Positions 3,850-41,625 of a stretch of DNA of 64,000 nt are shown here, piece after piece. Numbering within the stretch: the first letter of the stretch is position 1; each line of letters begins with the position of its first letter. The stretch lies in the NCBI GenBank assembly GCA_964384025.1, contig CAYLJJ010000001.1, positions 103,601 to 167,600 on the forward strand, read 5' to 3'. The position numbers and the translations under genes are program-made. Under the pieces are notes generated by a model that saw nothing but the letters and a program-made list of their open reading frames with translations, was not told the origin of the DNA and made no database searches. The DNA comes from an uncultured Nannocystaceae bacterium. GTDB lineage: Bacteria; Myxococcota_A; Bradymonadia; UBA7976; UBA1532.

Positions 3850-5913
3850 TTAGAGATCCTCTTCAAGAGGTTTCCAACACAGACCCAAGATCAGACTGAG
3901 AGCAGGGCTCTGAGCGCTGACTCCAAAGAGAGCTCCTGTTGTCAACTCAAACCCAGAGGCCATCCATGCCAAGCTGGGACCCAAGCTGATGAGACGGATC
4001 CTCTCAGTCTGTTCCTCTCCAAAGGCGGTGTCAGCTTCAATCCCAAGAGAGAGCGCTCGCCAGAGATTGAACTCAAGACCGTAGCCTCCTGACCAGAGGG
4101 TGATGCTCTCATCCTCTAGACCCCTGATGTAGCCTTGGCGGAGCCGTAACGCAAAGCGATCTTGGCGTAGAGATCCCTCCAAACTGGGGAGGAAGCGCGC
4201 TCCGCTGTGATCATTGAGGGTCGGTGCCCAAACACTGAGATCAAGCGAGAGGCCCAAACCCCAGAAGGCGCTGCGCAGCAAACGCAGGCCTAAGCTTCCA
4301 AAGAGAGCACCCTCAGGCTCTTTGCTGACGAAGGGCTCTATACTGAAAGCATGAGCCGCTCTCACCATCAGGCGCTCATTAAAGAGGCTGAACCCTACAC
4401 CGAGGCTCGGCAGCGCAGGGCTGAAGTTTCCTGCGCTGTCCTCCGCGAGAGGAGCTTCTGCAACCCAGAGGTGGAGGCCCATACGCTGCTCATCTCTGAG
4501 GCTCAACCTACGCGGAGAGGGGATCGTGGCGAAGGCTGAAGAAAGAGCCCTGAGTGGATCGAGCTGTAGAGGTGTATACTCCTCTGTAAGCTTGGGAACT
4601 GCAGGCTCTTCAAGTTTACTCTCTTGCGGTTGGGAGCTTGGAGCGCTGGAACTCTGTGCAGGGAGCACCTCGATCTTGGGGCGCGCCAGGAGCTGTCTAC
4701 TTTTATCAACACAACTCAGCTTGAATTGGCCTGGCTCTTTGAATTGGAAGCGACGCGCCTTGGAGCCTAAATTTTGGGCACAGCTTACACCCTCGGGGGC
4801 TTCAATCCAGCTTCCCAGCGGCAACGGGCTGTTGCCCTTAATCTTGCTGCCGTCAGGAGCGGAGAACTCAAGACTCAGCAGCTTGATGGTTTTGATCGGG
4901 GAGGGTTTGCTCTCAAAGCCCTGCGCATCCAGAGCAGAGACTCGAGCATAATAGGTCCCCAGCGGCAAGCCACGGATTTCAAAGCGCTGCGTTGGAGCTG
5001 GGACCGTGGTGATCACCAGGATTTGGCTGCCATCGGGGGAACGAGCCAGCTCAACACGATAAGCCGAAGCCTTGGAGACGGGCTCCCAGCGCCCCCAGGC
5101 TTTGGGTTGCTCTCCAGACAGGTTCAAGAGCTGGCTGGGGCTGTCAAGAGACCAACTGGGGCTTGGAGGGAGAAGCTTTGGCTTACTGGGGCGCTGCCCC
5201 TGTTTGACTGAACTGCCCATACCGGCAACGACCTCGACTTTTCCTCTGCCCCGCTTGCCCTCCAGTTGGATCGGTTTTCCCGCATGGTTGGAGAGCCGCG
5301 TGGTGTTGACTTTGTCTACAGAGAGGAGGGCTTGCCCTTCGCCGAGATGAGTCTCAGCACTGGGAGAGGAGATCAGCAGCTTTGGTGTCCCCGCCAACTC
5401 TCCCAAGTGACTGCGCAAACTTCCTCGCGCCAGGGTGGCGCGGCTGCGCGTTCGAATTCGGCTGGTGGTAGGACCGAAGATGATCACGAGGGTGTCATGA
5501 TGCAGATGGATTTGAGCTTGGTTTTGAAAGGTGATCTCTGCAGTGCCGTTCTCTAGGGTGTTGATCCGCCAGCCTCGGTACAGCTCCTGATTGAGCTTCG
5601 CCTCCTGATAGACGGGGGCGTCTGTTGCCCGAGAGTTTACTTGGGGTTCCATCTCGGTGAGCTTGGCGTCTGGCTCAGGAGCAGGGAGCTGGAGACGCGA
5701 GCCCGGCTTGAGCTTGTGGGGCAGCTTAAAGCCAAGCTGGGGATTGTGGATATGTATCTTGTCCCAGGCCTTGGGATCTCCAAAACGCTCCTCTGCGATC
5801 TTGGAGCAGGTGTCTCCCGGTTTGACAATATATTCAAACAGTTTTGGTTTGGATTGGGCCTGTGTAGTGAGCAGGAACAGCAAGCTCAAGCTGAGTATCC
5901 CAGGGTAATTCAT
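3850..5913 (-). CDS. secreted LysM domain protein with FecR-like and Ig/FN3-like regions
   Basis: Signal peptide MNYPGILSLSLLFLLTTQAQS. LysM motif YIVKPGDTCSKIAEERFGDPKAWDKIHIHNPQ. ATGA overlap with the upstream Ser/Thr kinase gene (5910-5913). Confidence 0.7.
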   Translation of the reverse strand: MNYPGILSLSLLFLLTTQAQSKPKLFEYIVKPGDTCSKIAEERFGDPKAWDKIHIHNPQLGFKLPHKLKPGSRLQLPAPEPDAKLTEMEPQVNSRATDAPVYQEAKLNQELYRGWRINTLENGTAEITFQNQAQIHLHHDTLVIIFGPTTSRIRTRSRATLARGSLRSHLGELAGTPKLLISSPSAETHLGEGQALLSVDKVNTTRLSNHAGKPIQLEGKRGRGKVEVVAGMGSSVKQGQRPSKPKLLPPSPSWSLDSPSQLLNLSGEQPKAWGRWEPVSKASAYRVELARSPDGSQILVITTVPAPTQRFEIRGLPLGTYYARVSALDAQGFESKPSPIKTIKLLSLEFSAPDGSKIKGNSPLPLGSWIEAPEGVSCAQNLGSKARRFQFKEPGQFKLSCVDKSRQLLARPKIEVLPAQSSSAPSSQPQESKLEEPAVPKLTEEYTPLQLDPLRALSSAFATIPSPRRLSLRDEQRMGLHLWVAEAPLAEDSAGNFSPALPSLGVGFSLFNERLMVRAAHAFSIEPFVSKEPEGALFGSLGLRLLRSAFWGLGLSLDLSVWAPTLNDHSGARFLPSLEGSLRQDRFALRLRQGYIRGLEDESITLWSGGYGLEFNLWRALSLGIEADTAFGEEQTERIRLISLGPSLAWMASGFELTTGALFGVSAQSPALSLILGLCWKPLEEDL

Positions 5914-7190
5914 GAGCCTCCCCGGCGTTGTGCACGTCGAATGGTGCGTCGGCTGGCGCGAAGTAGATCCTCCAGCTTTAACGGCAGAGGCAGAACCTCG
6001 GCGATCCCAGCCCGGAGCAGCTCTGCGATGAGCTGAACATCCCCAGGCTTGATCGCCGCGATAACAGGGAGTCCGCTCTTCAAGCCTTGCTCTAAGAGCT
6101 CCTCCTGAGCGACCAGCACCGCTTGAGCTTCGCCGATCCCCTCTTCTAAAGGTTCAACGCTGATCCCGTTGCTACGTAACCCTGTAGACAGAGCTGCTTC
6201 CAGCTCACCTAGGAGGGCCAGGCGCAGCTGTCCTGGGGCCGGCTTAGGTTTGAGCAACTTATGAAACCCATGCTTGCTGGCGGTAAGCATCTGGGTTTCA
6301 CGACCAAGCTTCTGACCGCGCTCACACTCTCCCGCCTTCTCTATTTGCAGTTGAACCAACACAGCGCGAACATCGCTGGCGCTGGGACGCTGAGGAGCTG
6401 CTTTACGCAACATCCGCATGACAAGATCCTCCAGCGCGGAGGGCAGCTCTGCGCCTCTTTCGCTGGGAAGGGGGGGGACGAGACCCACATGCTTGCTGGC
6501 GATCTGAAAAATCGAACCTTCAAAGGGAGGAGCACCACAGAGCATCTCATAAAAAACACAGCCTAGAGAATAGAGATCGCTGGCGGTGGAGATCTGCATA
6601 TCTCCATAGAGCTGCTCAGGTGACATATAGGCGGGGGAGCCTATTATGCGCCCCTCGGTGGTCATCCGCCCTAAGACCTGGTGGTCGATGATATGAGCTA
6701 AGCCAAAGTCCAGGATCATCGGCTGCTCTTCACCATTTTGGCTTCGCTCTACGATGATATTCTCAGGTTTAAGATCTCGATGAATGATCCTCTGCTTATG
6801 AGCAGCGACGAGGGCATCTGCAAGTTGCCAACCCAGACGAATCATACGAGGCACATAGAGACCTCTTTCACGCTGGATGACCGATCCCAACTCCTCTCCT
6901 TTGAGGAGCGGCATAGCCATATAACTCAAGCCCCTATCACGACCAAAATCGTAGATCTCCACAGCGTTGGGGTGGCGAAAGAGGGCCGCGACCTGCGCCT
7001 CTCGCATAAAGCGCTCTTCAGCCTTTTTGCTCCCCACCACATGAGGCAAGAGGACCTTGAGGGCGATCTCACGACCGAGGACCTCATGTTGACAGCGGAA
7101 AACCGCGCCCATACCACCGCGACCGATCTCCTCGACCACCAAGTAGCGCTTCGCGATAATCATTCCCGGCTTTAGGAGTACCTCAGTCAC
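5910..7190 (-). CDS. Ser/Thr protein kinase with an uncharacterised C-terminal domain
   Basis: Hanks kinase motifs [31 protein letters not shown] and SPEQ. GTG start at 7190 forms a GTGA overlap with the cyclase stop. Confidence 0.85.
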   Translation of the reverse strand: MTEVLLKPGMIIAKRYLVVEEIGRGGMGAVFRCQHEVLGREIALKVLLPHVVGSKKAEERFMREAQVAALFRHPNAVEIYDFGRDRGLSYMAMPLLKGEELGSVIQRERGLYVPRMIRLGWQLADALVAAHKQRIIHRDLKPENIIVERSQNGEEQPMILDFGLAHIIDHQVLGRMTTEGRIIGSPAYMSPEQLYGDMQISTASDLYSLGCVFYEMLCGAPPFEGSIFQIASKHVGLVPPLPSERGAELPSALEDLVMRMLRKAAPQRPSASDVRAVLVQLQIEKAGECERGQKLGRETQMLTASKHGFHKLLKPKPAPGQLRLALLGELEAALSTGLRSNGISVEPLEEGIGEAQAVLVAQEELLEQGLKSGLPVIAAIKPGDVQLIAELLRAGIAEVLPLPLKLEDLLRASRRTIRRAQRRGGS

Positions 7191-9043
7191 AGCTTGACCT
7201 CATAAAGTCGCAGCTGCTCAGCACGACCGGCCAGTTCTCGCAACCCAAGATCTTGATACTCAAAGTCATCCCCAGCCGCTTGCTTGGTGGTTTCAGAGAT
7301 CAGGATCTGTTGGGGGCGGGCGATCATCTCTAGACGAGAGGCGACGTTGACGACATCACCAATCGCTGTGTATTCCATACGAGCCTCTGAGCCGACATTG
7401 CCAACGATCGCCTCACCGGAGTTGACCCCGACAGCCAACTGTAACTCCACTCCAAAGCGTGCTCGCCAACCTACGTTGCCGATCTCAAGCCAACGCATGA
7501 TATCTTCAGCCGCCTGGAGCGCTCGATAGGCATGATCCGCTTGAGGTTCAGGCGCTCCCCAAATCGCCATCACACAGTCCCCTAAGAACTTATCCACGGT
7601 TCCCCCGTGCCGAAAAATGATCTCGGTCAAAATGGTGAAGAGTTCATTGAGAATACCGACGACCTCTTCAGGCGCCAGACGTTCGGTGAGTGGGGTAAAA
7701 CCAACAACGTCAGCAAAGAGCACAGAGATGGGCATACGACACCCCCCCAGCGCCATGTTCTGTTCTCGTCGCACCACTTTATCTACCAGATCAGCGTTCA
7801 GATAACGGCCCAGATCCTTGCGAATCTCCAGCTCTTCACGGATACGCAGCTCAGAATTTTGCAGATCGGCGGCGGCGGTGCTCATCGCTTCTCCAAGGAT
7901 GGCCAGCTCATCACGAGTGTTGATGGTGACGCGACGCTCAAAGCGACGCTCAGCCAGATCTCGAGCAAAATCAGCCAAGCTTTGGAGCGGCGCGGTGAGC
8001 CGTCGAGAGAAGAAGATCGCCAAGAACAGGGCCAAAAATGTGGCTAAGGTCAAGGCGAAGATCAGAGTAACGCGCATCACTCCAAGGGAGCCATAAGCCA
8101 CCTCTCTAGGCTGCTGCACCACCACCAATAGAGGCAAGCTGGGTAGACCCACCGCCGCCGCTACAAACTCTCCCCTTGGAGAGTCATAGAGCTTAGAGAT
8201 GGTCAGGCCCGCTTCTAGAGCCTCAGTGCTGATCCCCTCCATGAGATCTCCAAGAGGGGCGGGTTCAAGTAACTCTCTCTCAGCTCCAGGTACCTGAGCC
8301 AGCAGGCGCCCTTTGAGATCGACCACCATCAGAGGATCTGGGAGTCCCCGTAGATGAGCCCCACTCAGCTCCGCCAAGCGTACAGCCAGCGGAGCAAGAT
8401 CGACGGTGCTGGCGAGGAAACCGGTGAGCTTCTCCCCCACATACAGGGGTAGAAGAAGCTTGAAGCTGACTCGCGCTCCCTGAGCGATGGGGGGAAGGGT
8501 CAACATTCCCTTTTGAGCCTCCCTTAGCTCCTCAGCGCTGAGCTGCTCGTCAAACTCTCCCGCTCTGGGGGTGGCTTGCTCCTGAGGGAGGATCTGATCG
8601 ATGAGGCCCCCTGTAGCGCTGTAGATCGCGACTCGTTGATCCCCCTGTCCTGAAACTAGGGCAAGGGCGACGCCCAGCCGCAACTCCTCGGGCTGCCCAA
8701 CATCTGTCAACGCAGCGGCGATGCCTTGGAGCGTCGTGCGGCAGCGCTCCACCTCAAACTCAGCTGCTTGAGCCAGATCAGAGGCCAACATGATGTGAAA
8801 CTCCTTGATTCCACTCTCTACGGCCTTAGCATTGATGTCCATAAGGAGCCAGCCCACAGAGAGAAGGGGGATGATGGCGAGGAAGCTTGCCATCAACATC
8901 AGCTTAAGTCGCAGCGGGACGTTTGCGGCTCTCTGTTCTCTGGGATCTTCAGCTTCCACCACGCTCCTCCGGACTGATTTCTCGCGCAAACTAACTCGTA
9001 AGACAGCAAGATGGGAGTGGGTGGGACAGGACAGGGGCAGCAT
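7187..9043 (-). CDS. class III adenylate/guanylate cyclase with an N-terminal two-TM sensor and HAMP-like linker
   Basis: C-terminal cyclase motifs VLFADVVGFTPLTE, GDCVMAIWGAPE and GVNSGEAIVGNVGS. Two hydrophobic helices flank a ~280-aa predicted periplasmic domain. The track start is an ATG at 9043; internal Met codons at 8899 and 8893, immediately before TM1, are alternative starts. Confidence 0.8.
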   Translation of the reverse strand: MLPLSCPTHSHLAVLRVSLREKSVRRSVVEAEDPREQRAANVPLRLKLMLMASFLAIIPLLSVGWLLMDINAKAVESGIKEFHIMLASDLAQAAEFEVERCRTTLQGIAAALTDVGQPEELRLGVALALVSGQGDQRVAIYSATGGLIDQILPQEQATPRAGEFDEQLSAEELREAQKGMLTLPPIAQGARVSFKLLLPLYVGEKLTGFLASTVDLAPLAVRLAELSGAHLRGLPDPLMVVDLKGRLLAQVPGAERELLEPAPLGDLMEGISTEALEAGLTISKLYDSPRGEFVAAAVGLPSLPLLVVVQQPREVAYGSLGVMRVTLIFALTLATFLALFLAIFFSRRLTAPLQSLADFARDLAERRFERRVTINTRDELAILGEAMSTAAADLQNSELRIREELEIRKDLGRYLNADLVDKVVRREQNMALGGCRMPISVLFADVVGFTPLTERLAPEEVVGILNELFTILTEIIFRHGGTVDKFLGDCVMAIWGAPEPQADHAYRALQAAEDIMRWLEIGNVGWRARFGVELQLAVGVNSGEAIVGNVGSEARMEYTAIGDVVNVASRLEMIARPQQILISETTKQAAGDDFEYQDLGLRELAGRAEQLRLYEVKL

Positions 9044-11154: not shown

Positions 11155-11583
11155 ATGTCAAAGAAGAAGAAGAAGAAGAAGAATAAGAAGAAGAATAAAA
11201 ACAAGAAGCATCAAAAGAACGCTGGGAATCCCATCCAATCGATGCTCTTAGGTGGAGTGATCGTCGCGCTCCTCTGTGTCTTTTTCTTTGTTAAGATCTC
11301 AGGTGCGACCCCCTTTAATCATCTCCTCGAACTCATCCCAGGAGAGGAGCAGGTTCAAGAAGAGAGGACCCCAGCCAAGGTCAAGCCCAAGATCCCAGCT
11401 CAGGTCAAGCCCAAGCTTCCAATTCAGGTCAAACCCAAAGAGGTCAAGCCTACGCCTAAGGCTGTTGAAGCTGCGCCCAAGGCTGTTGAAGCCGCTCCTA
11501 AGGCTGTTGAGGCTCTCCCCAAGGCTGTCGAAGCCGCTCCTGTAAAAGCTCCTGTAAAAGCTCCAGAGAAGAAAAACCCGTGA
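11155..11583 (+). CDS. small membrane protein with a poly-lysine N-terminus and KPK / AVEAAPK repeats
   Basis: ATG at 11155 with AGGAGAGG 5 nt upstream. N-terminus MSKKKKKKKNKKKNKNKK is encoded by (AAG)7. One TM helix LLGGVIVALLCVFFFV. Repeats VKPKIPAQVKPKLPIQVKPK and (PKAVEAA)x4. Confidence 0.6.
   Translation: MSKKKKKKKNKKKNKNKKHQKNAGNPIQSMLLGGVIVALLCVFFFVKISGATPFNHLLELIPGEEQVQEERTPAKVKPKIPAQVKPKLPIQVKPKEVKPTPKAVEAAPKAVEAAPKAVEALPKAVEAAPVKAPVKAPEKKNP
11161..11181 (+). repeat. (AAG)7 trinucleotide tract encoding the poly-Lys N-terminus
   Basis: aagaagaagaagaagaagaag directly after ATG-TCA at 11155. Further AAG/AAT codons extend to 11220. Confidence 0.9.
11458..11541 (+). repeat. four 21-bp tandem repeats (aaggctgttgaagc.gc.cc.) encoding (PKAVEAA)x4
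   Basis: Read directly from the sequence at the 3' end of the 11155 gene. Confidence 0.8.
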
Positions 11584-11936
11584 AGTTGCTCTTACTGCTC
11601 TCTCTTTTAGGGAGCAGTGTACTCTCACTCTGGGTGCTTCAACAGGAGTATCAAGGGCGGAGTCAACTTGAAGCGATCACCCGGATCAGAAGCGCCCGCT
11701 TTGGAGAGCATGTCAGCAGCCGCATTGAACTCTATCTCAAAAGCCTGGATCCTCAACTCAAGCTGGTTTGGAGCGCTGAGCCTCAGGGGCTCCTGGGGCC
11801 TCCTGTTCGGGTGAGTGGAAAAGGCCCTGGCCATCATTACTACTTCCTGGTCCAGGCTGATGACTCCATCGAAGGCCTAGATCAGAACAGCCAAGCGCTG
11901 ATCCAAGCCACCCGAGAGTGGTCAGAACCTCCCTGA
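11580..11936 (+). CDS. hypothetical secreted protein
   Basis: GTGA overlap with the upstream gene. N-terminal signal-like MKLLLLLSLLGSSVLSLWV. Confidence 0.45.
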   Translation: MKLLLLLSLLGSSVLSLWVLQQEYQGRSQLEAITRIRSARFGEHVSSRIELYLKSLDPQLKLVWSAEPQGLLGPPVRVSGKGPGHHYYFLVQADDSIEGLDQNSQALIQATREWSEPP

Positions 11937-12413
11937 AACTTCAGCCTCTTCACAAAGATCATCATCCACCCAAGGATCTCCCGATTCATCCAATTCCCCC
12001 TCTTGGATCCCCAAGCTTTGGAGGAGGCGATCAGCATCAAAGGCCTCCAGTTCACAGCCCTCATCCTCCTCAAGATTGGCGCCCGTGCTGCGGACGCGAT
12101 ACCAACCAGGCTCTAGGCGCTCCAACAGGAAGGGCATCTCCCAGCGATCCAGGGCAGGATCGCGTCCGCTGCGGTTGGAGAGGTTCTCGCGGATAAACTC
12201 AGTGAAGCCCTCAGGATCCCGAGGAGAGGGAGGATCGCTGCTCTCCTCCAGGGCTCGGCTGATGAGCTGTAGCTCCTGTTGGGTAAAGAGGGCCCGAGCC
12301 CCGTTGACGATGATCCCTAAAGCTCGTTTTCCGATACGGGCGCTCCAAAAGAGACCGATGAGGAGCAGGAGCAGAGGGAGTGCTCGACGAAAGAGAGAGA
12401 ACAGTGCTCTCAC
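11922..12413 (-). CDS. hypothetical membrane-anchored acidic protein
   Basis: The track ORF runs to 12587. A GTG at 12413 (residue V59) forms a GTGA overlap with the stop of the upstream CNBD gene, and the product then begins VRALFSLFRRALPLLLLLIGLFW (a TM helix). The upstream 58 codons overlap the neighbouring gene. Confidence 0.45.
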   Translation of the reverse strand: MRALFSLFRRALPLLLLLIGLFWSARIGKRALGIIVNGARALFTQQELQLISRALEESSDPPSPRDPEGFTEFIRENLSNRSGRDPALDRWEMPFLLERLEPGWYRVRSTGANLEEDEGCELEAFDADRLLQSLGIQEGELDESGDPWVDDDLCEEAEVSGRF

Positions 12414-14428
12414 AGCGCTTCCAGTCGCGCCGCACAGATGCGATCTAGGCGCAGAAGGCTCTCCATATCCTCTACCAAGATCTCTCTCCAGGCTTCTGCA
12501 GGGATCCGGTGCAGGAGCAGCGCCTCTACCGCCCGCACAGTCGCCGTACGACAACCCCCTTTTAGGGCCACCACCTCCCCAAACCAATCACCGGGACCCA
12601 GCTCGGCGACGCTGTAACAGCTCCCTCCCTCTTCCTTCTCTATCCGTAGTCGCCCCACCTCGTTGAGATAGACCCCATCTTCTTCCTCTTCGCCCTGCTC
12701 TATGACCGCGACTCCAGGAGGAACCTCTAGGATAGAGCAGCGCGCCAGGAGCGCGCTGAGGCGCCCAGGTGAAGCAGCGGTGAGCCCAGGCAGGCGCCTC
12801 AGCATCGAGACCGCACGGATGGTATCGACGATCTCTTCTCCAGCCTGGATCCCTGCCTTAAAGTCCTCCTGAGAGATGCTCAAGACCAGCGCCGACTCCA
12901 TGGCGCGTACGGTAGCGTTGCGCTGCCCAGAGGAGACTAGGGCGATCTCTCCAAAGAAGGAGTGTGCTTCTAGCTCAGCGACTCCATGAATCAGGCCGCT
13001 CTCCTCTTCCCATTCTACCCGTGCACGACCTTCGGCAAGGAAGCAGAGGCGATCACCAGGATCCCCCTGTCTGAGGATCAGCTCCCCCTCCTGATAGGGC
13101 TCTCGCTTAAGGATCTCCGCCAGGGCTTGGCCTTGAGCCAAGGGTCTTAGATATTCGATCGCCTCAGCCGCTCGACGAAAAGCCCTCAACTCTTCAACCC
13201 GCGCGATCTGCCGAATCCAACGGGGCTTGGGCTCTAGGAGCTGAACAAGGATGACAAAGATGAGACCCACAAGGGAGGCGCTGAGAACGACCACGAGTAG
13301 AAAGAGGAGGAGACTGATCCCCAGGAGGCTCCAAGGGCGCTCCCCTTGCACCAGGAGCTGGGCCACCATACGAAGCACGGTAGGAAGGTATTGCTCTCCC
13401 AGTAAGCTTAGGAGCAGCAAGCCATGCAGAAGCCAACTGGAGACCAGGATGAGATAACGCCACTCTCCTCGGGTCATTCCTTGGCTCCGCCTTAGGTTGC
13501 GGCCCACTTGGCGGATAAGGAAACGTAGAGTTCTGCGCCTGAGTTTGGGGATACCGGTTAAGATCCCGGCGATATGCCAAGCATCTGTTTTTAGATAGGG
13601 GGCTAGATCCAGCAGAAGGAGCAGCAGCACGACCCCGGTAAAGAGCGGCGCCTCCAAGAACCGACCAAAAGCGAAGAGAAAACAGAGGCTGGCGAGTCCT
13701 CCCAGCGCCAGCTTGAGGCGTTGTTGGGCTGAGGCGGCGCGTCTGCTTGAGAGATCAAAGGCTAGATAGACACCCCAGGGGCGCAAACGTAGAAAGGCCC
13801 GAGGTACTGGCAGCTCAAAGCTTCTGAGCATCCAAGCTTTAAAGAGGCTTCTGAAGCTGAAGAGCATGCTTGGGAAGAGGATAAGGGCGAAGAAGAGAGC
13901 CAGAGGGGAGTTAAGCGCAGGGATCGGGTTCCAACTCTGAGGGCCTCCTAAGAGGCCGTAGAGCAGCGCCAGCAGCGCCAGAAGGAAGCTGAAGCTCCAG
14001 AAGTGCTGGGGGAGGAGTTTTCCAGGTACGGAGAGGATTCTCAAGGCTGGAAGAGGGAGTTGGCCTCGGATGCGGAGGCTGGGGGGCCCAAAGATGGGCG
14101 CATCTACACCCTCCAAGAGGCCTCGCTGATAGAGCCTGCGCAGGAGCCCTAAGATCTTCAAGGGTTGTAACCTGGGTTTGAGTTCCAGGCCCGCTCTGAG
14201 GATCATATCTAGGCTTCTGCCATCCAAAAATGGGAGGATCTGCTCCTCATCTGGGCTGAGGTCGAGAGCTCCCTGGGAACCAATCACTCTCCCCGCCTCT
14301 AAGCGCCCTAGAAATTTAGGTCTCTGGATCTGCACTCCATCTCCTCTTCCAGAGGGCTGACATCCCCTTGGGTTTATGGACTGTGCTTCTTCTGCCATGA
14401 GCTTGAAGAGACAACAGATGGCTGTCAA
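12410..14428 (-). CDS. polytopic membrane protein with two C-terminal cyclic-nucleotide-binding (CAP-type) domains
   Basis: Multiple hydrophobic helices in the central region. Two CNBDs in the C-terminal third: FGEIALVSSGQRNATVRA and FGEVVALKGGCRTATVRAVE. Alternative start at Met11 (14398). Confidence 0.7.
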   Translation of the reverse strand: MTAICCLFKLMAEEAQSINPRGCQPSGRGDGVQIQRPKFLGRLEAGRVIGSQGALDLSPDEEQILPFLDGRSLDMILRAGLELKPRLQPLKILGLLRRLYQRGLLEGVDAPIFGPPSLRIRGQLPLPALRILSVPGKLLPQHFWSFSFLLALLALLYGLLGGPQSWNPIPALNSPLALFFALILFPSMLFSFRSLFKAWMLRSFELPVPRAFLRLRPWGVYLAFDLSSRRAASAQQRLKLALGGLASLCFLFAFGRFLEAPLFTGVVLLLLLLDLAPYLKTDAWHIAGILTGIPKLRRRTLRFLIRQVGRNLRRSQGMTRGEWRYLILVSSWLLHGLLLLSLLGEQYLPTVLRMVAQLLVQGERPWSLLGISLLLFLLVVVLSASLVGLIFVILVQLLEPKPRWIRQIARVEELRAFRRAAEAIEYLRPLAQGQALAEILKREPYQEGELILRQGDPGDRLCFLAEGRARVEWEEESGLIHGVAELEAHSFFGEIALVSSGQRNATVRAMESALVLSISQEDFKAGIQAGEEIVDTIRAVSMLRRLPGLTAASPGRLSALLARCSILEVPPGVAVIEQGEEEEDGVYLNEVGRLRIEKEEGGSCYSVAELGPGDWFGEVVALKGGCRTATVRAVEALLLHRIPAEAWREILVEDMESLLRLDRICAARLEAL

Positions 14429-17500: not shown

Positions 17501-17692
17501 GCCAGCACGGGACCCTGGGGCCTCCTGGTCCTGGATGTCTCTGACGCCGCCCAGCCTGTCGTACGCTACGCTGCTCGCAGCATCGGCTATCTAAGCCGCA
17601 TCGTCCTCCATGGTCTCTACGCCTATACCCCTCTGGGTTGGTATGGGATCCATCGCTATCAAGTAGAGCAGGAGAGCAGCGAGGCGCTCTAA
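14576..17692 (+). CDS. large lipoprotein, predicted beta-propeller type
   Basis: Lipobox LLPLLGC. 1038 aa, rich in repeated beta-strand-like blocks (LYVLNRFRGLAIIDVSDPSEMQVIG ...). No recognisable catalytic motif. Confidence 0.5.
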   Translation: MPKSSLISLLLSLSLLPLLGCEEEGSCRSSEPAAPAEPAAPQAPEGSISPDGFLPPTAPGEVPALDPSIFPLKGEMEFTTANENELLSNGMNGYIGQNGRDVLGDMDGDFAGEAEPGAAGNPNAPPAEEAVPDPSREIVEADVYKLEGDLLYVLNRFRGLAIIDVSDPSEMQVIGRLPFQAMPIEMYVREGRAYIVMSDHFVYWQYDPDADPQGFHGSQVMIADVSDPQNPKQMGSLHVDGEVTDTRMVGDVLYAVSKRRADYWRYNTADWEDRTWIVSLNISDPSQIHEIDRITFSGTSTLIHVAHHAIFVAAWDPNYYLTDGLNEQETLVTYVDISDPEGALSKRGHVYIPGQIADKFKMDWFEGSLRVISQRWRSDGNIGLHIVHTNHPDELEIDANLEVDGVTRSGLRATRFQGDRAFAMTSYYENYRNGSGYRNRIRELHTLDLSDADHPEHVAQARIDLDISHFEIHEDRLLALGSNHERWNDRRVVLALYDISNLENPEELALERLGEGNSSSGANNDYKALKVYRDLELILIPLNYWVRDNNNHNRSFQGVQLVDWRGDRIIERGRVANFGGVRRAFPVNDEQIIAVGERAISSINIQDRDNPEVEEVINLIHQVHDIYNIQDLQVQFVTDIYENSVEIQVREFAKEDNGPLLARLILPYYHTPSVYQDGDVLHLIGYEHGNGQTVRNVDLSDPRDPQLRGQLILVNEYERIYNQGQSYYARYWSPYAGLPLRNQILPATFRHIVEDETGRRDFQSELRFLDLRDVDNPRIADGVVPMNEFPFVNKVTHGQILYSTHVEQATSEQGESLLYHVRSYVDRIDLSDPDHPEMLPSINVPGYLVDVSEDGQVWFTVDFQWDNFGRRRNSLNVLRQISDHQVELITMIPVADQIDRALYRPSAEAAKSIWLAAHKYPWWGVRSDTVASRQPYTVLQNFNIDAEGQLVGQTRATVAGYHFDLLDIEAQRAYLASTGPWGLLVLDVSDAAQPVVRYAARSIGYLSRIVLHGLYAYTPLGWYGIHRYQVEQESSEAL

Positions 17693-18456
17693 CACCAAGT
17701 CGCCCGCCAAGGGGGCCTCGGAAGCTCCTGAAAACGCCTCACCAACTCTGAGAGGGTATAGGTCCGCAGCCCTCGACGCTGAATCAACTTCAACAGCTCG
17801 TCTAAAAGCGTGGCGATCCCTCCGGAGCGTCGCAGGGGAGCCAGCTGCTCAGGGCGGAGGCTGGGCAGAGGTCCCAGCGCCTTGGCTGCCTCATAGCTGC
17901 TCAGATCCTGAGCGCCCAGATACCACTGAAGGGGGTGCCAAGCCAGCACCTTAAGCCCTGGTTGTTCTAGAAAAAGAGCTCTGAGATCGATGGGACGACC
18001 CTCAGCGAGGTGTGCTGCGTCAGACCAGACATAGGGAACTCGGATCAAACCAAAGAAGCTCTGAAAAACCTCAAGATTGGGGTGATCAAAGAGCTGGAGG
18101 CTGCTGTCATAGATCAGCCCGTGGGCGCAGAGACGCCGGAGCAGGGGGCTGGATTGGATCAGGCAGTGGCTTCGGCTTCCCTGCGCTCCTGGAAACCACT
18201 CCTTAAGCTGGATCAGCACCTCATCGATGCTCTCTCCCTGACTACTCCCTGGCGCAAAATTGGGATGCCAAGCACGCTCTAGGTTAGGGGACAGCCGTTC
18301 CAGGCTGGGGCAGGGCTGGGTAGCAAAGAGGGTCGCTGAGACCCCATACGCTTGAAGAACGCTGATCAGCTCAGCCAACACAAACTCTGGGGCCCAATCT
18401 AGATCAAAGGTCAGGGCCAAGCTCTGTAGACCTCCTTGGTTGTAGAAACACCTCAC
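17689..18456 (-). CDS. polysaccharide deacetylase-like protein (NodB / CE4 fold)
   Basis: N-terminal LALTFDLDWAPEFVLAELISVLQAYGVSATLFAT matches the CE4 N-terminal pattern (TFDDG...ATFF) with variant Asp spacing. Its stop codon overlaps the stop of the convergent lipoprotein gene on the opposite strand. Confidence 0.5.
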   Translation of the reverse strand: MRCFYNQGGLQSLALTFDLDWAPEFVLAELISVLQAYGVSATLFATQPCPSLERLSPNLERAWHPNFAPGSSQGESIDEVLIQLKEWFPGAQGSRSHCLIQSSPLLRRLCAHGLIYDSSLQLFDHPNLEVFQSFFGLIRVPYVWSDAAHLAEGRPIDLRALFLEQPGLKVLAWHPLQWYLGAQDLSSYEAAKALGPLPSLRPEQLAPLRRSGGIATLLDELLKLIQRRGLRTYTLSELVRRFQELPRPPWRATWC

Positions 18457-18992
18457 TTCCGAGCTTCTCCTTCGCGAAAGAGAGCCATCAAACAGAGATT
18501 GAGATAGCGCCCTTCCAGATAATGATGTTTGCGTAAGCAGCCCTCCTCTTGAAAACCGAGAGAGGTGTAGAGCCTCCGAGCGGGATTGTCTTCTAAGACC
18601 TGGAGGCAGATCTTACGCAGGTTGAGGGCCTCCCAGGCATAGTTGATCAGCAACAGGATTGCTTCACGCCCCAGACCCTGACCTCGATAACTCGAGGCGC
18701 CGATGGCGATCCCAAAAGAGGCGGTGCCGCTGATCCAATCGATCTCGCTCAGCTGGATATAACCCACGAGGCGAGGTGGCTCATCTAAGCTCTCAATCCC
18801 AAAGAGGAGGCGCCGTCGATCCTTGAGGAGCGCTTCATACCAGTTCTGTACTTGCTCTGGACTGACAGGACCGCGATAACCCATCGCGGGATCGCGCACC
18901 AAGGGGTCGTTCTGCCACTCTAAAATTTGAGGGAGATCTGCCGAAGAGATCGGCCTCAGGCGCAGCCTCTCGCCTTGATACTGAATTACCAT
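18453..18992 (-). CDS. GNAT family N-acetyltransferase
   Basis: GNAT core YIQLSEIDWISGTASFGIAIGASSYRGQGLGREAILLLINYAWE...LGFQEEG. I start at the ATG at 18992 (MVIQYQGERLRL). The 58 codons the track adds upstream would overlap the radical SAM gene. Confidence 0.75.
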   Translation of the reverse strand: MVIQYQGERLRLRPISSADLPQILEWQNDPLVRDPAMGYRGPVSPEQVQNWYEALLKDRRRLLFGIESLDEPPRLVGYIQLSEIDWISGTASFGIAIGASSYRGQGLGREAILLLINYAWEALNLRKICLQVLEDNPARRLYTSLGFQEEGCLRKHHYLEGRYLNLCLMALFREGEARK

Positions 18993-20378
18993 CTGGAGAA
19001 GCACTCCTTGAGAACATCTTTGAAGAAGATCGACGCGCTGGAAGCCCAGCTTGAAGAGAGCAGCCTCCTGGCCTGGGGCCTGGGCCGAGATCAGGCCGCT
19101 GCACCACAGATCATCTACCTCTGCCCCACCAACCACTGCAACCACCGCTGCATCACCTGTGCTCACTCGGTCACGATCCGCTCAGGGCGAGGAGAGCGAG
19201 GCTTTATGGAGTTGGAGCTGTTTGAGGAGATCCTCAAACAGCTCCCTCCGGGGCGACGGAGGATCTACCTCCAGAAGACAGGAGAGCCGCTGCTCCACCC
19301 CCAGATTGGGGAGATGTTGCGGCTCCTGCGGGAGGCGCGGCCTGAGTATGAGATCGCGCTACACAGCAACGCCAGCCATCTCAGCGGAGAGAAGATCCCA
19401 CTCCTCCTGAGGTACGCCGATTTTGTCTCCTTTTCGATCTTTGGCTTTGATCCTGAGCGTTACGCTGCGGCGCATGGCCGGGATGATTTTCAACGCTTTC
19501 ACCGCAACTTGGGGGCCTTCTATGAGGCTTGGCGAAAGGTTGATCGTCGCCCCAAGGTTTACTTCGACGTGGTGCGTTGTCCTGAGAACGCTGGGTTGAG
19601 CCCTGAGGAGATTTTTCAAGCGCTACAGTCTCGCTATCCCGCCTTTAACGTGGGCCTTCACTTTCCCTTTAATTTTCAGGGGGTTCTCCCTGGTTACGAT
19701 CTTGATGCCTTCAAACATCTGTCTCAGGAGCAGTTTCCAGTCTGTATCTGGCCCTGGGTGATGGCGGTGATCCACTGGGATGGCAAGCTGGGCTATTGCG
19801 TAGGAGATGCTTATGAGACCGCCTTCTTGGGGGATCTGCGAAAAGATTCCTTGATGGATCTATGGAACGGCCCCGCTTATCGCGCTTTTCGGAGGGGGCA
19901 TCTGGAGCGCGCCTTTGATCGTTTGGCGCAGGAGGAGATCCACTGTGGACGCTGTAACTGGCTCTTTGGTCTCAAGTCTCAGTCAGCCGAGAACCTCTGT
20001 CTAACACAGCGCAAAGAGTCCTCAGATCCTCTGGAGGCTCTCCCAGGAGGTACACCGGTCAGTGGCGCTCAACATCTAGAGTTAGGGCTGCGGCGGCTGC
20101 AGCGGGGAGAGCTGGCTGAGGCGATGCGCGCTTTTGTGCTCGCCGAGCTGCTCAATGAGGACCTCGCTGAACGAGCACAAGCTTGGCAGGTGCGGGTCCG
20201 TAAGATCTGGACACGGCGAGCCGATCTGGAGTCCTGGGAGAGCGCTTTAAACCAAGAGGGGCTCTCTCTGGCGACGGTACATCAGAGCCACTATAGCCTC
20301 TCCAAAGATCCTCTAGCGCAGATCTCAGATGCTCATCAGCGCTTGGGAGAGATCATCCTTAAAGAGGGGGATCTTTAG
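18927..20378 (+). CDS. radical SAM protein with a SPASM-like C-terminal Cys cluster and a TPR-like tail
   Basis: CxxxCxxC motif CPTNHCNHRCITC. C-terminal Cys-rich FPVCIWPW...GYCVGD...HCGRCNW. Start is uncertain: the ATG at 18927 overlaps the divergent GNAT start by 66 nt. In-frame TTGs at 19008 and 19020 precede the Cys motif and avoid the overlap. Confidence 0.65.
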   Translation: MREICRRDRPQAQPLALILNYHLEKHSLRTSLKKIDALEAQLEESSLLAWGLGRDQAAAPQIIYLCPTNHCNHRCITCAHSVTIRSGRGERGFMELELFEEILKQLPPGRRRIYLQKTGEPLLHPQIGEMLRLLREARPEYEIALHSNASHLSGEKIPLLLRYADFVSFSIFGFDPERYAAAHGRDDFQRFHRNLGAFYEAWRKVDRRPKVYFDVVRCPENAGLSPEEIFQALQSRYPAFNVGLHFPFNFQGVLPGYDLDAFKHLSQEQFPVCIWPWVMAVIHWDGKLGYCVGDAYETAFLGDLRKDSLMDLWNGPAYRAFRRGHLERAFDRLAQEEIHCGRCNWLFGLKSQSAENLCLTQRKESSDPLEALPGGTPVSGAQHLELGLRRLQRGELAEAMRAFVLAELLNEDLAERAQAWQVRVRKIWTRRADLESWESALNQEGLSLATVHQSHYSLSKDPLAQISDAHQRLGEIILKEGDL

Positions 20379-37782: not shown

Positions 37783-38988
37783 GTGAACAAGGGGTGGTTG
37801 TGCCCAGCCGGTGAAATGCAGAGAGGGAAGCTCGCCCACATCTTAAGCAGCTGCTTTGCGGTCAGCGATGAGGAATCCCTGAACTGGTTTAAGAGGCTGG
37901 GAGAGGAGAATGTTCGAGTTGCCTTGCGTTTAGGTGAGGTGCAGGGGGGGATGGTATTGCTCCCGATGTTCCAGTACTTCGGTGGCAGACCCATCCCGAT
38001 GATGGGGGTGGCTGGGGTAGGAGTCTCTCCCTGTTATCGTCGCCAAGGTTTGGCTAAGAAGATGATGAAGCAGGCGTTGCTGGAGGCTCATGAGCGGGGC
38101 TTTGCTCTCTCCAGCCTCTACGCATCCAGCTTGGCCCTCTATCGCCACTCGGGCTATGAGCTGGCGGGGGGACGTTATAAGGTTCAGATCCCCGCTGAGT
38201 TGATCAAGGTCAAGGGTGACACAAGCAGGATCCAGGAGCTGGAAGAGGCGGATTTTGAAGCGGTCAAAGAGGTTCATCAGCGCTTCGCTGAAGCGGGCAA
38301 CGGCCAACTGGGACGCCCTGAGGCGCTCTGGCGTCGAGCACGCTTTGAGCGAGATGGGCGTCCCCTCTTTGGCTATGGCTATAGAACTGCGAAGGGTCTG
38401 GAGGGCTACCTCTATCTGCGAACGGAGCGTCAGCCCGGAGAGATGCACCATCTGCTCAAGCTGACCGACTTTATCGCTCTCAATGAAGCCGCAGCGCGAG
38501 GGCTCTGGGCCTTACTGAGCAACCACGCGACTACAGCATCGAATGTCCACTGTTTCCTCTCTCCCTGGAGCCTACCCCCTATGGTCTTAGAGGAGCGGCA
38601 AGCCCTCAAGACGCGGTTACTGGACACTTGGACTCTGCGGATCCTCAACATCCCTCTGGCCCTAGAATCACGCGGCTACCCCAAAGCGGTCTCTGGACGA
38701 GTCTCTCTTCGGATAAAAGACAAGCAGCTCTTCCAAAACAACCGCGCTTGGGTTTTGGATGTCGATAGGGGAGTTGCCCAGGTAAAGGTGGATGCTGAGC
38801 TTCCGTCACGCCTGAGATCATCCCATCCAGTCTTTTTGGGACCCAGGGGGCTCTCTGCCCTCTTTAGCGGTCATATGAACCCATTTCAGCTTAAAGCCCT
38901 GGGTTTTTTGGATGGAGAAGATCGAGACCTACTGACACTCCAGCTTCTCTTTGGAGGACCTCAACCCTGGATGATCGATATGTTTTGA
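37783..38988 (+). CDS. Eis-like GNAT acetyltransferase (tandem GNAT plus SCP2-like C-terminus)
   Basis: GNAT core GMVLLPMFQYFGGRPIPMMGVAGVGVSPCYRRQGLAKKMMKQALLEAHERGFALSSLYAS. ~400-aa length and C-terminal region are consistent with the Eis/SCP2 architecture. Confidence 0.6.
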   Translation: MNKGWLCPAGEMQRGKLAHILSSCFAVSDEESLNWFKRLGEENVRVALRLGEVQGGMVLLPMFQYFGGRPIPMMGVAGVGVSPCYRRQGLAKKMMKQALLEAHERGFALSSLYASSLALYRHSGYELAGGRYKVQIPAELIKVKGDTSRIQELEEADFEAVKEVHQRFAEAGNGQLGRPEALWRRARFERDGRPLFGYGYRTAKGLEGYLYLRTERQPGEMHHLLKLTDFIALNEAAARGLWALLSNHATTASNVHCFLSPWSLPPMVLEERQALKTRLLDTWTLRILNIPLALESRGYPKAVSGRVSLRIKDKQLFQNNRAWVLDVDRGVAQVKVDAELPSRLRSSHPVFLGPRGLSALFSGHMNPFQLKALGFLDGEDRDLLTLQLLFGGPQPWMIDMF

Positions 38989-39012
38989 ATAAAACTTAGA
39001 AATAACTCAAGA

Positions 39013-41544: not shown

Positions 41545-41625
41545 ATTTTATATACTCAGAAGCGCAGTTGATTGAATCCAGAGAGGGCAGAGTTTAGCAT
41601 CGGTGATCTTCGCTTCAGAGGGGAT

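What the first reader, a model, noticed from the sequence alone, without database searches (positions are those of the whole stretch)
12410..14428. Polytopic membrane protein ending in two tandem cNMP-binding domains
A ~200-aa soluble N-region, then a multi-helix membrane core, then two CAP-type CNBDs (FGEIALVSSGQRNATVRA and FGEVVALKGGCRTATVRAVE). Tandem CNBDs on a non-channel-like membrane core is not a standard architecture (CNG/HCN-type and bCNG/MscS-type proteins carry one CNBD). It is the likely effector of the cyclases found 3 kb and 34 kb away. A small acidic membrane protein is coupled downstream (GTGA at 12413).
Basis: partly seen in the sequence, partly recalled or inferred. Interest (0 to 1): 0.55.

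Follow-up and report, generated by a model that had tools for sequence, protein, structure and literature searches.

The report
cAMP-sensing dead membrane protease with pilin-like partner
The gene encodes a membrane protein descended from site-2 (M50) intramembrane proteases that has lost its zinc-binding catalytic motif, carries two intact cyclic-nucleotide sensor domains, and is always followed by a small pseudopilin-like protein; this two-gene module is uncharacterised.

Summary
A 672-codon ORF lies at 12410..14428 (-). Its likely start is GTG 14335, giving 641 aa. It has six TM helices and two C-terminal CNBDs (Pfam E 2.9e-34), both with the Gly-Glu and Arg of the phosphate-binding cassette. 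A small acidic gene overlaps its stop (GTGA).

The membrane core is not an orphan. A profile of the N-terminal 400 aa finds 263 cluster representatives. Profile-profile comparison (99.9 %, E 7e-34) aligns it end to end with RRE/PqqD-fused M50 (site-2-type) intramembrane metalloproteases, the kind that removes daptide leader peptides.

In this subfamily HExxH is replaced by RxxxR/K (R-S-L-F-K here; Arg in 60/62 members). The Pro and Asp of NxxPxxxxDG are kept. It is therefore a conserved pseudoprotease.

Tandem CNBDs recur in this clade (67 of 88 non-His and 18 of 53 HExxH representatives).

The downstream protein is a GspG-like domain (PDB 2kep, E 7.6e-5) without a prepilin motif. It follows the gene in all 9 distinct loci examined, all of the named ones being Myxococcota or Deltaproteobacteria MAGs. 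No cyclase linkage is conserved.

Best reading: a cNMP-regulated, non-cleaving S2P-like binder of its pilin-like partner. The architecture is shown; the mechanism is inferred. It is a new variant of a known kind.

The parts
12410..14335 (-). Main gene: 641-aa RRE-like / pseudo-M50 / 2xCNBD protein, with likely GTG start at 14335. The longest ORF extends to TTG 14428.
   Evidence: ORF list. GAGGAG lies 5 nt upstream of GTG 14335. The same start is called in ENA P0001. AF2 full-length model: pLDDT 91.1, pTM 0.85.
14111..14320 (-). N-terminal winged-helix, RRE/PqqD-like domain (residues ~6-75 of the 641-aa protein).
   Evidence: AF2 shows three strands followed by helices. It aligns with the RRE region of the HExxH relatives, whose profile hits PqqD, TbiB1 and PaaA (E 4e-4 to 6e-4). 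The subfamily profile gives only sub-significant PqqD and TbiB1 hits (E 0.13-0.19). There is no direct PF05402 hit.
13235..14005 (-). Six-helix M50/S2P-like membrane core (residues ~111-367).
   Evidence: Hydropathy. AF2 helices 111-129, 144-172, 203-226, 230-243, 289-330 and 335-367. hhalign to HExxH M50 relatives: E 7e-34. Foldseek's highest-probability match is mjS2P 3b4r, but it is not significant.
13838..13852 (-). R-S-L-F-K (residues 162-166), occupying the position of the zinc-binding HExxH motif.
   Evidence: Column-for-column alignment with the HExxH of relatives. In the family, Arg occupies the first His position in 60/62 and Arg/Lys the second in 55/62.
13583..13609 (-). D-L-A-P-Y-L-K-T-D (residues 243-251), the counterpart of the M50 NxxPxxxxDG motif. 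The Pro and the third-ligand Asp are retained.
   Evidence: Alignment. Pro in 62/62 and Asp in 56/62.
12806..13147 (-). CNBD-A (residues ~397-510). Its phosphate-binding cassette FGEIALVSSGQRNATVRA lies at 12902..12955.
   Evidence: Pfam PF00027. Local HMM. Gly-Glu and Arg are present; in the family G 62/62, E 48/62, R 44/62.
12434..12778 (-). CNBD-B (residues ~520-634). Its phosphate-binding cassette FGEVVALKGGCRTATVRA lies at 12530..12583.
   Evidence: Pfam PF00027. Local HMM. In the family G 59/62, E 54/62, R 55/62. The tandem pair matches PKG and PKA-R CNB-A/B structures (Foldseek E 4e-15).
11922..12413 (-). Partner gene, translationally coupled by a GTGA overlap. It encodes a 163-aa acidic protein with an N-terminal hydrophobic segment (conserved Pro) and a GspG-like (pseudopilin-fold) domain.
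   Evidence: Sequence. pI 4.4. A homologue lies directly downstream in all 9 distinct loci. A 10-sequence profile hits PDB 2kep GspG at E 7.6e-5. Pfam T2SSG matches 2 of 10 members, best E 4.5e-5.

Best explanation
SHOWN.
- The gene encodes an inner-membrane protein of four parts: an N-terminal winged-helix (RiPP-recognition-element/PqqD-like) domain, a six-helix core homologous to M50/site-2-type intramembrane metalloproteases, and two C-terminal cyclic-nucleotide-binding domains arranged like the CNB-A/B pair of PKA-R and PKG.
- The zinc-binding HExxH is replaced by R-S-x-x-K. The subfamily consensus is LSxRGLxRG.
- The neighbouring conserved Ser, the Asp after the beta-hairpin, and the Pro and Asp of the second M50 motif stay among the most conserved residues.
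- It is therefore a conserved, catalytically dead 'pseudo-S2P', not a decaying gene.
- It forms a two-gene module with a small acidic protein whose soluble part is GspG-like.

INFERRED.
- Topology is N-in, C-in. The basic loops 173-202 and 251-288, the pseudo-active site, the RRE-like domain and the CNBDs are all cytoplasmic.
- The Arg/Lys pair salt-bridges the retained Asp residues and stands in for zinc as a structural element.
- The partner is N-in, C-out. Its GspG-like domain, with a conserved Cys pair, is periplasmic. Its short N-terminal hydrophobic segment, with Pro and Gly-Gly helix breakers, resembles an S2P substrate.

PROPOSED MECHANISM.
- The pseudoprotease binds the partner's N-terminal segment in the former substrate groove without cutting it.
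- cAMP or cGMP binding to the tandem CNBDs changes that grip.
- The cytoplasmic second messenger thereby controls retention, release or conformation of a periplasmic pilin-like protein.
For: - Two CNBDs with intact cassettes. The tandem fold matches PKG and PKA-R.
- The exhaustive search finds 263 relatives. The closest ~60 share the same length and architecture.
- HExxH aligns with RSxxK, and NLxPLLELDG with DLAPYLKTDA. hhalign of subfamily against HExxH relatives gives 99.9 %, E 7e-34, over 365 columns including the N-domain.
- Those relatives are real RRE-M50 proteins. They hit PF02163 and PF05402, NF041824 daptide protease at E 1e-39 to 1e-54 and YydH/LiaK, and PDB mjS2P at E 3.8e-7 and PqqD at E 4e-4.
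- Conservation of the replaced site: R162 in 60/62, R/K166 in 55/62, S160 in 53, D194 in 49, P246 in 62, D251 in 56.
- High-confidence AF2 models.
- The partner lies directly downstream in 9 of 9 distinct loci, at gaps from -4 to about 28 nt. Nothing else recurs.
- The partner is GspG-like. Its Pro13 is nearly invariant, and a Cys pair is present in most members.
- The two HExxH relatives whose contexts were read lack the partner. One sits next to an NHLP-type leader peptide gene.
Against: - No experiment and no complex model links the two proteins physically. Co-occurrence is the only evidence of partnership.
- Foldseek of the N-terminal model against the PDB gives no significant match (mjS2P E 0.69, prob 0.72, TM 0.39). 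The S2P fold therefore rests on sequence profiles.
- The window protein itself matches neither PF02163, PF05402 nor NF041824.
- The partner's hydrophobic segment is short (~15 residues) and could be a cleaved Sec signal peptide. It would then not remain in the membrane.
- The window protein departs from the family consensus at several conserved positions (K166, E174, W187, Q276).
- Ligand identity (cAMP or cGMP) cannot be read from the sequence.
Confidence: 0.6

Rival explanations
1. It is still an active, cNMP-regulated RiPP leader peptidase like its HExxH relatives, using non-canonical catalytic residues.
For: It is homologous along its whole length to RRE-M50 peptidases. The third-ligand Asp and the Pro of the second motif are kept. 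Radical SAM genes lie nearby in the window (18927..20378), directly upstream in L001, and 6 kb away in L002.
Against: Both His and the catalytic Glu are replaced in 60/62 members by Arg, Gly and Arg/Lys, which cannot bind zinc or activate water. No precursor-like small ORF or modifying enzyme recurs across loci. Radical SAM genes are absent from the L007, L009 and L012 flanks.
Confidence: 0.05
2. The M50-like helices have been re-used as a cNMP-gated pore or transporter, for example for anions, with the membrane-embedded Arg/Lys lining the path. The partner is only an operon neighbour.
For: Conserved basic residues sit inside TM2. CNBDs are classically attached to channels. S2P cores contain a water-accessible cavity (established knowledge of mjS2P, PDB 3b4r).
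Against: There is no homology to any channel or transporter family. The TRPV2 Foldseek rows have probability at most 0.14. The conserved Asp residues next to the Arg/Lys suggest internal salt bridges rather than a free anion site. The strict pairing with the partner (9 of 9) is left unexplained.
Confidence: 0.1
3. It is a cNMP-regulated pseudoprotease that acts on something other than its neighbour, for example by titrating substrates of, or regulating, a catalytic S2P. This would parallel iRhoms for rhomboids or plant EGY3. The RRE-like domain would bind a cytoplasmic peptide or protein tail, and the GspG-like protein would be a separate downstream output.
For: Pseudoproteases of intramembrane families generally keep client binding (EGY3: PMC9355673). 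The RRE-like domain is retained. The partner may lose its N-terminal segment if that segment is a signal peptide.
Against: No other conserved neighbour exists. Start/stop overlaps of 1-4 nt in several loci point to stoichiometric co-production with the partner.
Confidence: 0.2

Closest known systems
RRE-fused M50 intramembrane peptidases of RiPP pathways (daptide MpaP, NCBIfam NF041824; YydH/LiaK, NF058609)
   Same: Same order of N-terminal RRE/PqqD-like domain and multi-helix M50 core, alignable over 365 columns. Some HExxH members of this clade also carry two CNBDs, at the N- or C-terminus. MpaP is described as an RRE-dependent intramembrane leader peptidase (PMC10036551).
   Different: HExxH is replaced by RxxxR/K. 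The protein matches neither NF041824 nor PF02163. It has no adjacent precursor peptide or modifying enzymes. It has an obligate GspG-like partner, which the two HExxH relatives checked lack.
Canonical site-2 proteases with cytoplasmic ligand-sensing domains (mjS2P and SpoIVFB with CBS domains; RseP with PDZ)
   Same: A membrane-embedded M50 core joined to a regulatory domain. In SpoIVFB a nucleotide-binding CBS domain controls activity (own knowledge, not tested here). The relatives' profile hits 3b4r, 8vjl and 7w6x.
   Different: The regulatory module here is a PKA-R-like CNBD pair. The core is catalytically dead. Structural similarity to 3b4r is weak.
Plant EGY3, an S2P-family pseudoprotease
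   Same: An S2P homologue that lacks the zinc-binding motif yet is conserved (PMC9355673).
   Different: EGY3 is reported only from plants (PMC9355673). It has no CNBDs, no RRE-like domain and no pilin-like partner. No direct sequence comparison was made here.
PKA regulatory subunit / PKG tandem CNB-A/B
   Same: Two consecutive CNBDs with Gly-Glu and Arg cassettes. These structures are the top Foldseek hits (E 4e-15; 3of1 TM 0.55).
   Different: The pair is tethered to a membrane pseudoenzyme instead of inhibiting a kinase.
GspG / XcpT major pseudopilin of type II secretion (for the partner protein)
   Same: The soluble domain is alignable over nearly the whole of 2kep (E 7.6e-5), including the DxWGxPY and SxGxN/D motifs. 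The N-terminal hydrophobic segment is followed by a long helix.
   Different: There is no prepilin-peptidase motif (G/FTLIE, Glu5). It is not in a T2SS or T4P operon. It has an extra acidic tail with a conserved Cys pair. The window member itself does not reach Pfam T2SSG.

Membership tests
Peptidase M50 / site-2 protease | HExxH zinc-binding and catalytic motif in a TM helix | tested here: not met
   R-S-L-F-K aligns with HExxH. In the subfamily this is RxxxR/K in about 55-60 of 62 members.
Peptidase M50 / site-2 protease | Second motif NxxPxxxxDG, with the Asp as third zinc ligand | tested here: met
   DLAPYLKTDA is at the aligned position. Pro is in 62/62 and Asp in 56/62. Asn is mostly Asp, and Gly is Ala in the window protein.
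Peptidase M50 / site-2 protease | Match to the family model (PF02163, PF13398) above threshold | tested here: not met
   There is no hit even at E<=10 for the N-terminal 398 aa. Only 1 of 62 subfamily members hits, at E 0.0036.
Peptidase M50 / site-2 protease | Homology to bona fide members by profile comparison | tested here: met
   hhalign A2 against A5: 99.9 %, E 7e-34. A5 hits mjS2P 3b4r at E 3.8e-7, and its members hit PF02163.
Peptidase M50 / site-2 protease | S2P core fold | tested here: inconclusive
   Foldseek of the N-terminal model: 3b4r has the highest probability (0.72), but E is 0.69 and TM 0.39.
RRE-dependent RiPP intramembrane peptidase (MpaP/daptide, YydH/LiaK) | N-terminal RRE (PqqD-like) domain | tested here: inconclusive
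   It aligns with the RRE region of relatives. AF2 shows strands followed by helices. The subfamily profile's PDB hits include PqqD, TbiB1 and PaaA, but only at E 0.13-0.77. PF05402 hits 0 of 62 members.
RRE-dependent RiPP intramembrane peptidase (MpaP/daptide, YydH/LiaK) | Match to NF041824 or NF058609 | tested here: not met
   There is no hit for the window protein (E<=0.1) or for P0004 (E<=0.001).
RRE-dependent RiPP intramembrane peptidase (MpaP/daptide, YydH/LiaK) | Adjacent precursor peptide and tailoring enzymes | tested here: not met
   Only the GspG-like gene recurs across 9 loci.
Cyclic-nucleotide-binding domain (PF00027), PKA-R-like tandem | Two PF00027 domains | tested here: met
   E 2.9e-34, two stretches. 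All 62 of 62 family members hit.
Cyclic-nucleotide-binding domain (PF00027), PKA-R-like tandem | Phosphate-binding cassette with Gly-Glu and Arg at canonical spacing | tested here: met
   FGEIALVSSGQR and FGEVVALKGGCR have Arg nine residues after Glu, as in PKA RI-alpha GELALIYGTPR (own knowledge).
Cyclic-nucleotide-binding domain (PF00027), PKA-R-like tandem | Actual binding of cAMP or cGMP, and selectivity | not testable with these tools
   This needs ITC or a fluorescence assay on the purified domain pair.
CNBD-gated channels (CNG/HCN/MloK1; bCNG/MscS-type) | Ion_trans pore domain or MscS domain | tested here: not met
   No such Pfam hit. The core is homologous to M50.
TIGR03896 bacteriocin-type transport-associated CNBD protein | Score above the family cut-off | tested here: not met
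   45.1 bits against a cut-off of 161.
GspG-type pseudopilin (partner protein) | T2SSG globular domain | tested here: met
   The 10-sequence profile hits 2kep_A at E 7.6e-5 over residues 5-107 of 110. Pfam T2SSG matches 2 of 10 members. The window member alone does not hit.
GspG-type pseudopilin (partner protein) | Class III signal peptide (Gly-Phe-Thr-Leu-Ile-Glu, Glu5) for prepilin peptidase | tested here: not met
   The N-termini read MRALFSLFRRALPLLLLL... and similar in all 10 members. None has a G/FTLIE motif.
GspG-type pseudopilin (partner protein) | Location in a T2SS or type IV pilus gene cluster | tested here: not met
   No secretion or pilus genes flank it in the window or in the other loci.

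The most novel reading that the evidence does not exclude
This is the first bacterial site-2-protease pseudoenzyme family. In this reading it is a new type of cyclic-nucleotide effector. cAMP or cGMP binding on the cytoplasmic side makes a dead intramembrane protease grip or release the membrane segment of a dedicated pilin-like protein. That would transmit a second-messenger signal across the inner membrane to a periplasmic or surface structure without proteolysis, phosphorylation or transcription.
Probability: 0.25. Interest if true: 0.75.

Novelty: new variant of a known kind. Interest (0 to 1): 0.55.

Why it matters
Bacterial cNMP effectors beyond CRP-type regulators and a few channels are poorly known. 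Intramembrane pseudoproteases have been studied mainly for rhomboids (iRhoms, Derlins), and the S2P pseudoprotease EGY3 is reported only from plants (PMC9355673).

This family gives a compact two-gene bacterial system. The zinc site has been replaced by conserved Arg/Lys, a substrate-recognition (RRE-like) domain and a PKA-R-like sensor are retained, and the candidate client is encoded next door. That makes 'what does a dead S2P do?' directly testable.

Current databases label these proteins only as 'cNMP-binding' or 'hypothetical'. The M50 relationship and the pairing are not visible in existing annotation.

Tried and rejected
1. The word-indexed protein search was nearly blind to this family. 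It gave 2 hits with the single sequence, 3 with a 17-sequence profile, and only the query members plus one more for the partner. Low-complexity TM words probably swamp the index. The exhaustive HMMER search was what opened the family.
The 2-sequence alignment gave 3 loci.
3. Pfam and NCBIfam on the N-terminal region gave nothing even at E<=10.
4. A 3-sequence profile of the partner found nothing in the PDB. Only the 10-sequence profile reached GspG.
The second job went to the N-terminal region instead.
6. Foldseek of the full model returned only CNBD proteins. Foldseek of the N-terminal model gave no significant hit; the TRPV2 rows, with probability at most 0.14, were disregarded.
7. Cyclase linkage was tested and rejected. 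RiPP-cluster linkage was considered and rejected as not conserved.
8. The promoter and terminator scan was uninformative.
9. Literature searches for S2P or M50 combined with cNMP or PqqD found nothing relevant.
Full report
**1. Observation**

The window holds an ORF at 12410..14428 on the minus strand, 672 codons from a TTG. Pfam finds only cNMP_binding, in two stretches (E 2.9e-34). A local CNBD HMM places them at residues 428-541 and 551-665 of the 672-aa ORF, and finds no other CNBD ORF in the 64 kb.

Kyte-Doolittle hydropathy gives about six hydrophobic segments.

The likely start is GTG 14335. GAGGAG lies 5 nt upstream of it, whereas TTG 14428 and ATG 14398 have no such site. A near-identical ENA contig calls the same start (P0001, 641 aa). 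With this start the soluble N-region is about 110 aa, not about 200.

The stop TGA (12412..12410) overlaps a GTG at 12413. That GTG opens a 163-aa ORF whose product has pI 4.4.

A HAMP plus class III cyclase lies at 7187..9043, and a class I cyclase at 48121..51255.

**2. What the membrane part is**

The N-terminal 398 aa match no Pfam or NCBIfam model, even at E<=10. The word-indexed search of 5.8 billion proteins returned only the protein itself and one 29 %-identical relative, P0002, which also has two CNBDs.

An exhaustive HMMER search with a profile of these two N-terminal regions found 263 cluster representatives at E<=1e-3, of which 37 had E<=1e-30. The best ~60 are 650-720 aa long. More distant hits carry HExxH, and about 90 residues later NLxPLLELDG. 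These are the two motifs of M50/site-2 proteases.

Those distant hits match several models:
- Pfam Peptidase_M50, often PqqD at the N-terminus, and in many cases two CNBDs at either end.
- NCBIfam NF041824, 'daptide biosynthesis intramembrane metalloprotease', at E 1e-39 to 1e-54 over the whole model, though below its cut-off.
- NCBIfam NF058609, YydH/LiaK.

A profile of 20 of them hits mjS2P (3b4r, E 3.8e-7), PqqD (3g2b, 4e-4), the lasso RRE TbiB1 (4.8e-4), SpoIVFB and RseP. The daptide enzyme MpaP is described as an RRE-dependent intramembrane leader peptidase (PMC10036551).

Profile-profile comparison of 17 subfamily N-regions against those 20 HExxH proteins gives 99.9 % probability and E 7e-34 over 365 columns. 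The alignment runs from the N-terminal domain through the helices. The homology is therefore established at the sequence-profile level.

**3. The catalytic site is gone but conserved in its new form**

In the model-anchored alignment the window's S-F-R-S-L-F-K-A lies column for column on x-x-H-E-x-x-H-A, and D-L-A-P-Y-L-K-T-D-A lies on N-L-x-P-L-L-E-L-D-G.

Among the 151 sequences analysed (the listed representatives plus the window protein), 88 lack the histidines and 53 have HExxH. The commonest non-His form is RGxxR (44), and about 75 are R-x-x-x-R/K.

In a 62-member full-length alignment the most conserved residues of the N-terminal 400 aa include S160 (53/62), R162 (60), R/K166 (55), D194 (49, plus 6 Glu), P246 (62) and D251 (56). 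This pattern indicates purifying selection on a remodelled site, not decay.

Arg and Lys cannot bind zinc, and the catalytic Glu is Gly or Ser. I therefore call the protein a pseudoprotease. That the basic residues pair with the retained Asp residues is my inference. I could not read the model coordinates to check it.

**4. Structure**

AF2 with the 62-sequence alignment gives pLDDT 91.1 and pTM 0.85. The elements are:
- strands 11-13, 16-18 and 23-25 followed by helices (a winged-helix, RRE-like pattern);
- TM helices 111-129, 144-172, 203-226, 230-243, 289-330 and 335-367;
- a beta-hairpin at 180-193;
- a basic amphipathic helix at 265-283;
- two beta-roll domains.

Foldseek against the PDB returns tandem CNB-A/B structures of PKG and PKA-R (E 4e-15; Bcy1 TM 0.55).

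A separate model of residues 1-383 (pLDDT 89.4) has no significant PDB match. The row with the highest probability is mjS2P (3b4r: prob 0.72, E 0.69, TM 0.39). A winged-helix domain comes next (8hkr, prob 0.47). The fold evidence is therefore consistent but inconclusive.

The subfamily profile's best PDB sequence hits are a winged-helix repressor (E 0.0085), then PqqD (0.13) and TbiB1 (0.19). No subfamily member reaches PF05402.

From the positive-inside rule I infer N-in, C-in. This puts the basic loops 173-202 and 251-288, the former active site, the N-domain and the CNBDs all on the cytoplasmic side.

**5. CNBDs**

Both cassettes have Gly-Glu, with Arg nine residues after the Glu: FGEIALVSSGQR and FGEVVALKGGCR. 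This is the spacing of PKA RI-alpha (own knowledge).

| Residue | CNBD-A | CNBD-B |
|---|---|---|
| Gly | 62/62 | 59/62 |
| Glu | 48/62 | 54/62 |
| Arg | 44/62 | 55/62 |

The sequence does not tell cAMP from cGMP.

Tandem CNBDs are common in this clade:
- 67 of 88 non-His representatives have two at the C-terminus;
- 10 HExxH representatives have two at the C-terminus;
- 8 HExxH representatives have two at the N-terminus.

**6. The partner**

A homologue of the downstream 163-aa protein follows the main gene in every locus whose DNA extends past it. These are the window/L003, L001/L005, L002, L004, L006, L007, L009/L010, L011 and L012, that is 9 distinct loci. Spacing ranges from a 4-nt overlap to about 28 nt.

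An all-against-all BLAST of locus ORFs shows that nothing else recurs.

The loci that carry organism names are Myxococcota or Deltaproteobacteria MAGs. NCBI calls both proteins 'hypothetical'.

The partner alignment shows these features:
- a short hydrophobic N-segment with a nearly invariant Pro, often followed by Gly-Gly;
- then a helix;
- the motif R-D-x-x-x-D-x-W-G-x-P-Y ... S-x-G-P-N;
- an acidic tail ending in D-D-x-C, with a second conserved Cys upstream.

A 10-sequence profile hits the pseudopilin GspG/XcpT (2kep, E 7.6e-5) over almost the whole soluble domain. Pfam T2SSG matches 2 of 10 members, best E 4.5e-5.

There is no prepilin-peptidase motif and no secretion or pilus operon around the gene.

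Two HExxH relatives whose contigs could be read lack this partner. One sits next to an NHLP-like leader peptide gene (L014).

**7. Cyclases**

phmmer with both window cyclases finds no homologue in the flanks of any other locus. Genomic linkage therefore gives no support for a dedicated cyclase-effector pair.

The protein remains a plausible cAMP/cGMP target simply because it is the only CNBD ORF in the window.

**8. Mechanism**

Shown:
- the domain architecture;
- the loss of HExxH, with conservation of the replaced site;
- intact cNMP cassettes;
- the obligate two-gene unit;
- the GspG-like partner.

Inferred:
- the topology;
- the salt-bridged pseudo-site;
- periplasmic location of the partner's domain (Cys pair; Arg before the hydrophobic segment);
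- the resemblance of its Pro/Gly-containing, probably N-in/C-out segment to S2P substrates. S2P substrates are type II membrane segments with helix-breaking residues (established knowledge of SREBP and RseA).

Proposal: the dead protease holds the partner's N-terminal segment without cutting it, and cNMP binding to the CNBDs changes this hold.

Rivals:
- residual peptidase activity (0.05);
- a cNMP-gated pore (0.1);
- a pseudoprotease acting on other clients or on a catalytic S2P (0.2).

**9. Comparison and novelty**

The closest known proteins are the RRE-M50 RiPP peptidases (MpaP, YydH/LiaK). The protein works most like a ligand-regulated S2P, such as CBS-bearing SpoIVFB, but without catalysis. 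In that respect it parallels EGY3, which is reported only in plants (PMC9355673).

It fails the defining catalytic feature of M50 and matches no family model. I therefore do not file it as an M50 peptidase, but as an M50-derived pseudoprotease subfamily.

Full-text searches for S2P or M50 together with cNMP found nothing.

Verdict: a real, conserved, unannotated two-gene module, a new variant of a known kind, of moderate interest.

Noticed in passing
window 48121..51255 (-): A 1044-aa class I (enterobacterial CyaA-type) adenylate cyclase (PF01295 E 4.5e-81, PF12633 E 4.5e-49). The surrounding genome otherwise looks myxobacterial or deltaproteobacterial, with many Ser/Thr kinases and FHA, PEGA and MopE repeats. 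From my own knowledge, class I cyclases are mostly gammaproteobacterial.
   Followed up: no
window 3850..9043 (-): The HAMP/class III cyclase (7187..9043), a Ser/Thr kinase (5910..7190) and a 687-aa LysM protein (3850..5913) have 4-nt start/stop overlaps. They look like one operon.
   Followed up: no
window 11155..11936 (+): Two small overlapping genes converge on the partner gene. The first encodes 142 aa, with a poly-Lys/Asn N-terminus (MSKKKKKKKNKKKNKNKK), a TM segment and PKAVEAA-type tandem repeats. The second encodes 118 aa with a signal-like N-terminus. Neither has a Pfam hit. The second gene's end overlaps the partner gene's end by 15 nt.
   Followed up: no
window 29595..34874 (+): A 1759-aa ORF full of MopE-type putative metal-binding motifs (PF11617 E 2.8e-49). 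It lies in a stretch with unusually strong positive GC skew (0.14-0.19 at 30-36 kb).
   Followed up: no
window 38001..42000: GC drops to 0.46-0.49 against about 0.56-0.59 elsewhere. The dip covers a GNAT/SCP2 protein, a hybrid histidine kinase and an MshEN-domain protein. It may be a horizontally acquired patch.
   Followed up: no
window 52007..52894 (-): A flagellin-like gene (Flagellin_N E 3.4e-12). The named relatives of the target gene come from Myxococcota MAGs, a group not known for flagella (own knowledge). The window's organism was not identified.
   Followed up: no
window 17689..20378: A radical SAM/SPASM gene (18927..20378 +) lies next to a GNAT and a WbmS-like deacetylase. Radical SAM genes also lie directly upstream of the homologue in L001 and 6 kb upstream in L002, but not in L007, L009 or L012. 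I judged the linkage not conserved.
   Followed up: partly
L014 1121..1321 (+), upstream of P0078: A 66-aa ORF (MLSENAEKLIDKWMNDTTFRDALRRDPQAAVAAAGVTLSEDERAALG...) that looks like an NHLP/Nif11-type RiPP leader peptide (recognised from memory, not tested). It sits next to an HExxH M50 relative with two N-terminal CNBDs. This suggests cNMP-regulated RiPP leader peptidases exist.
   Followed up: partly
P0152 (558 aa) and window 2108..3835 (+): An M50 relative of the same clade carries an N-terminal FHA/YscD domain instead of CNBDs. This clade therefore swaps cytoplasmic sensor domains. The window also encodes a double-FHA TPR protein.
   Followed up: no
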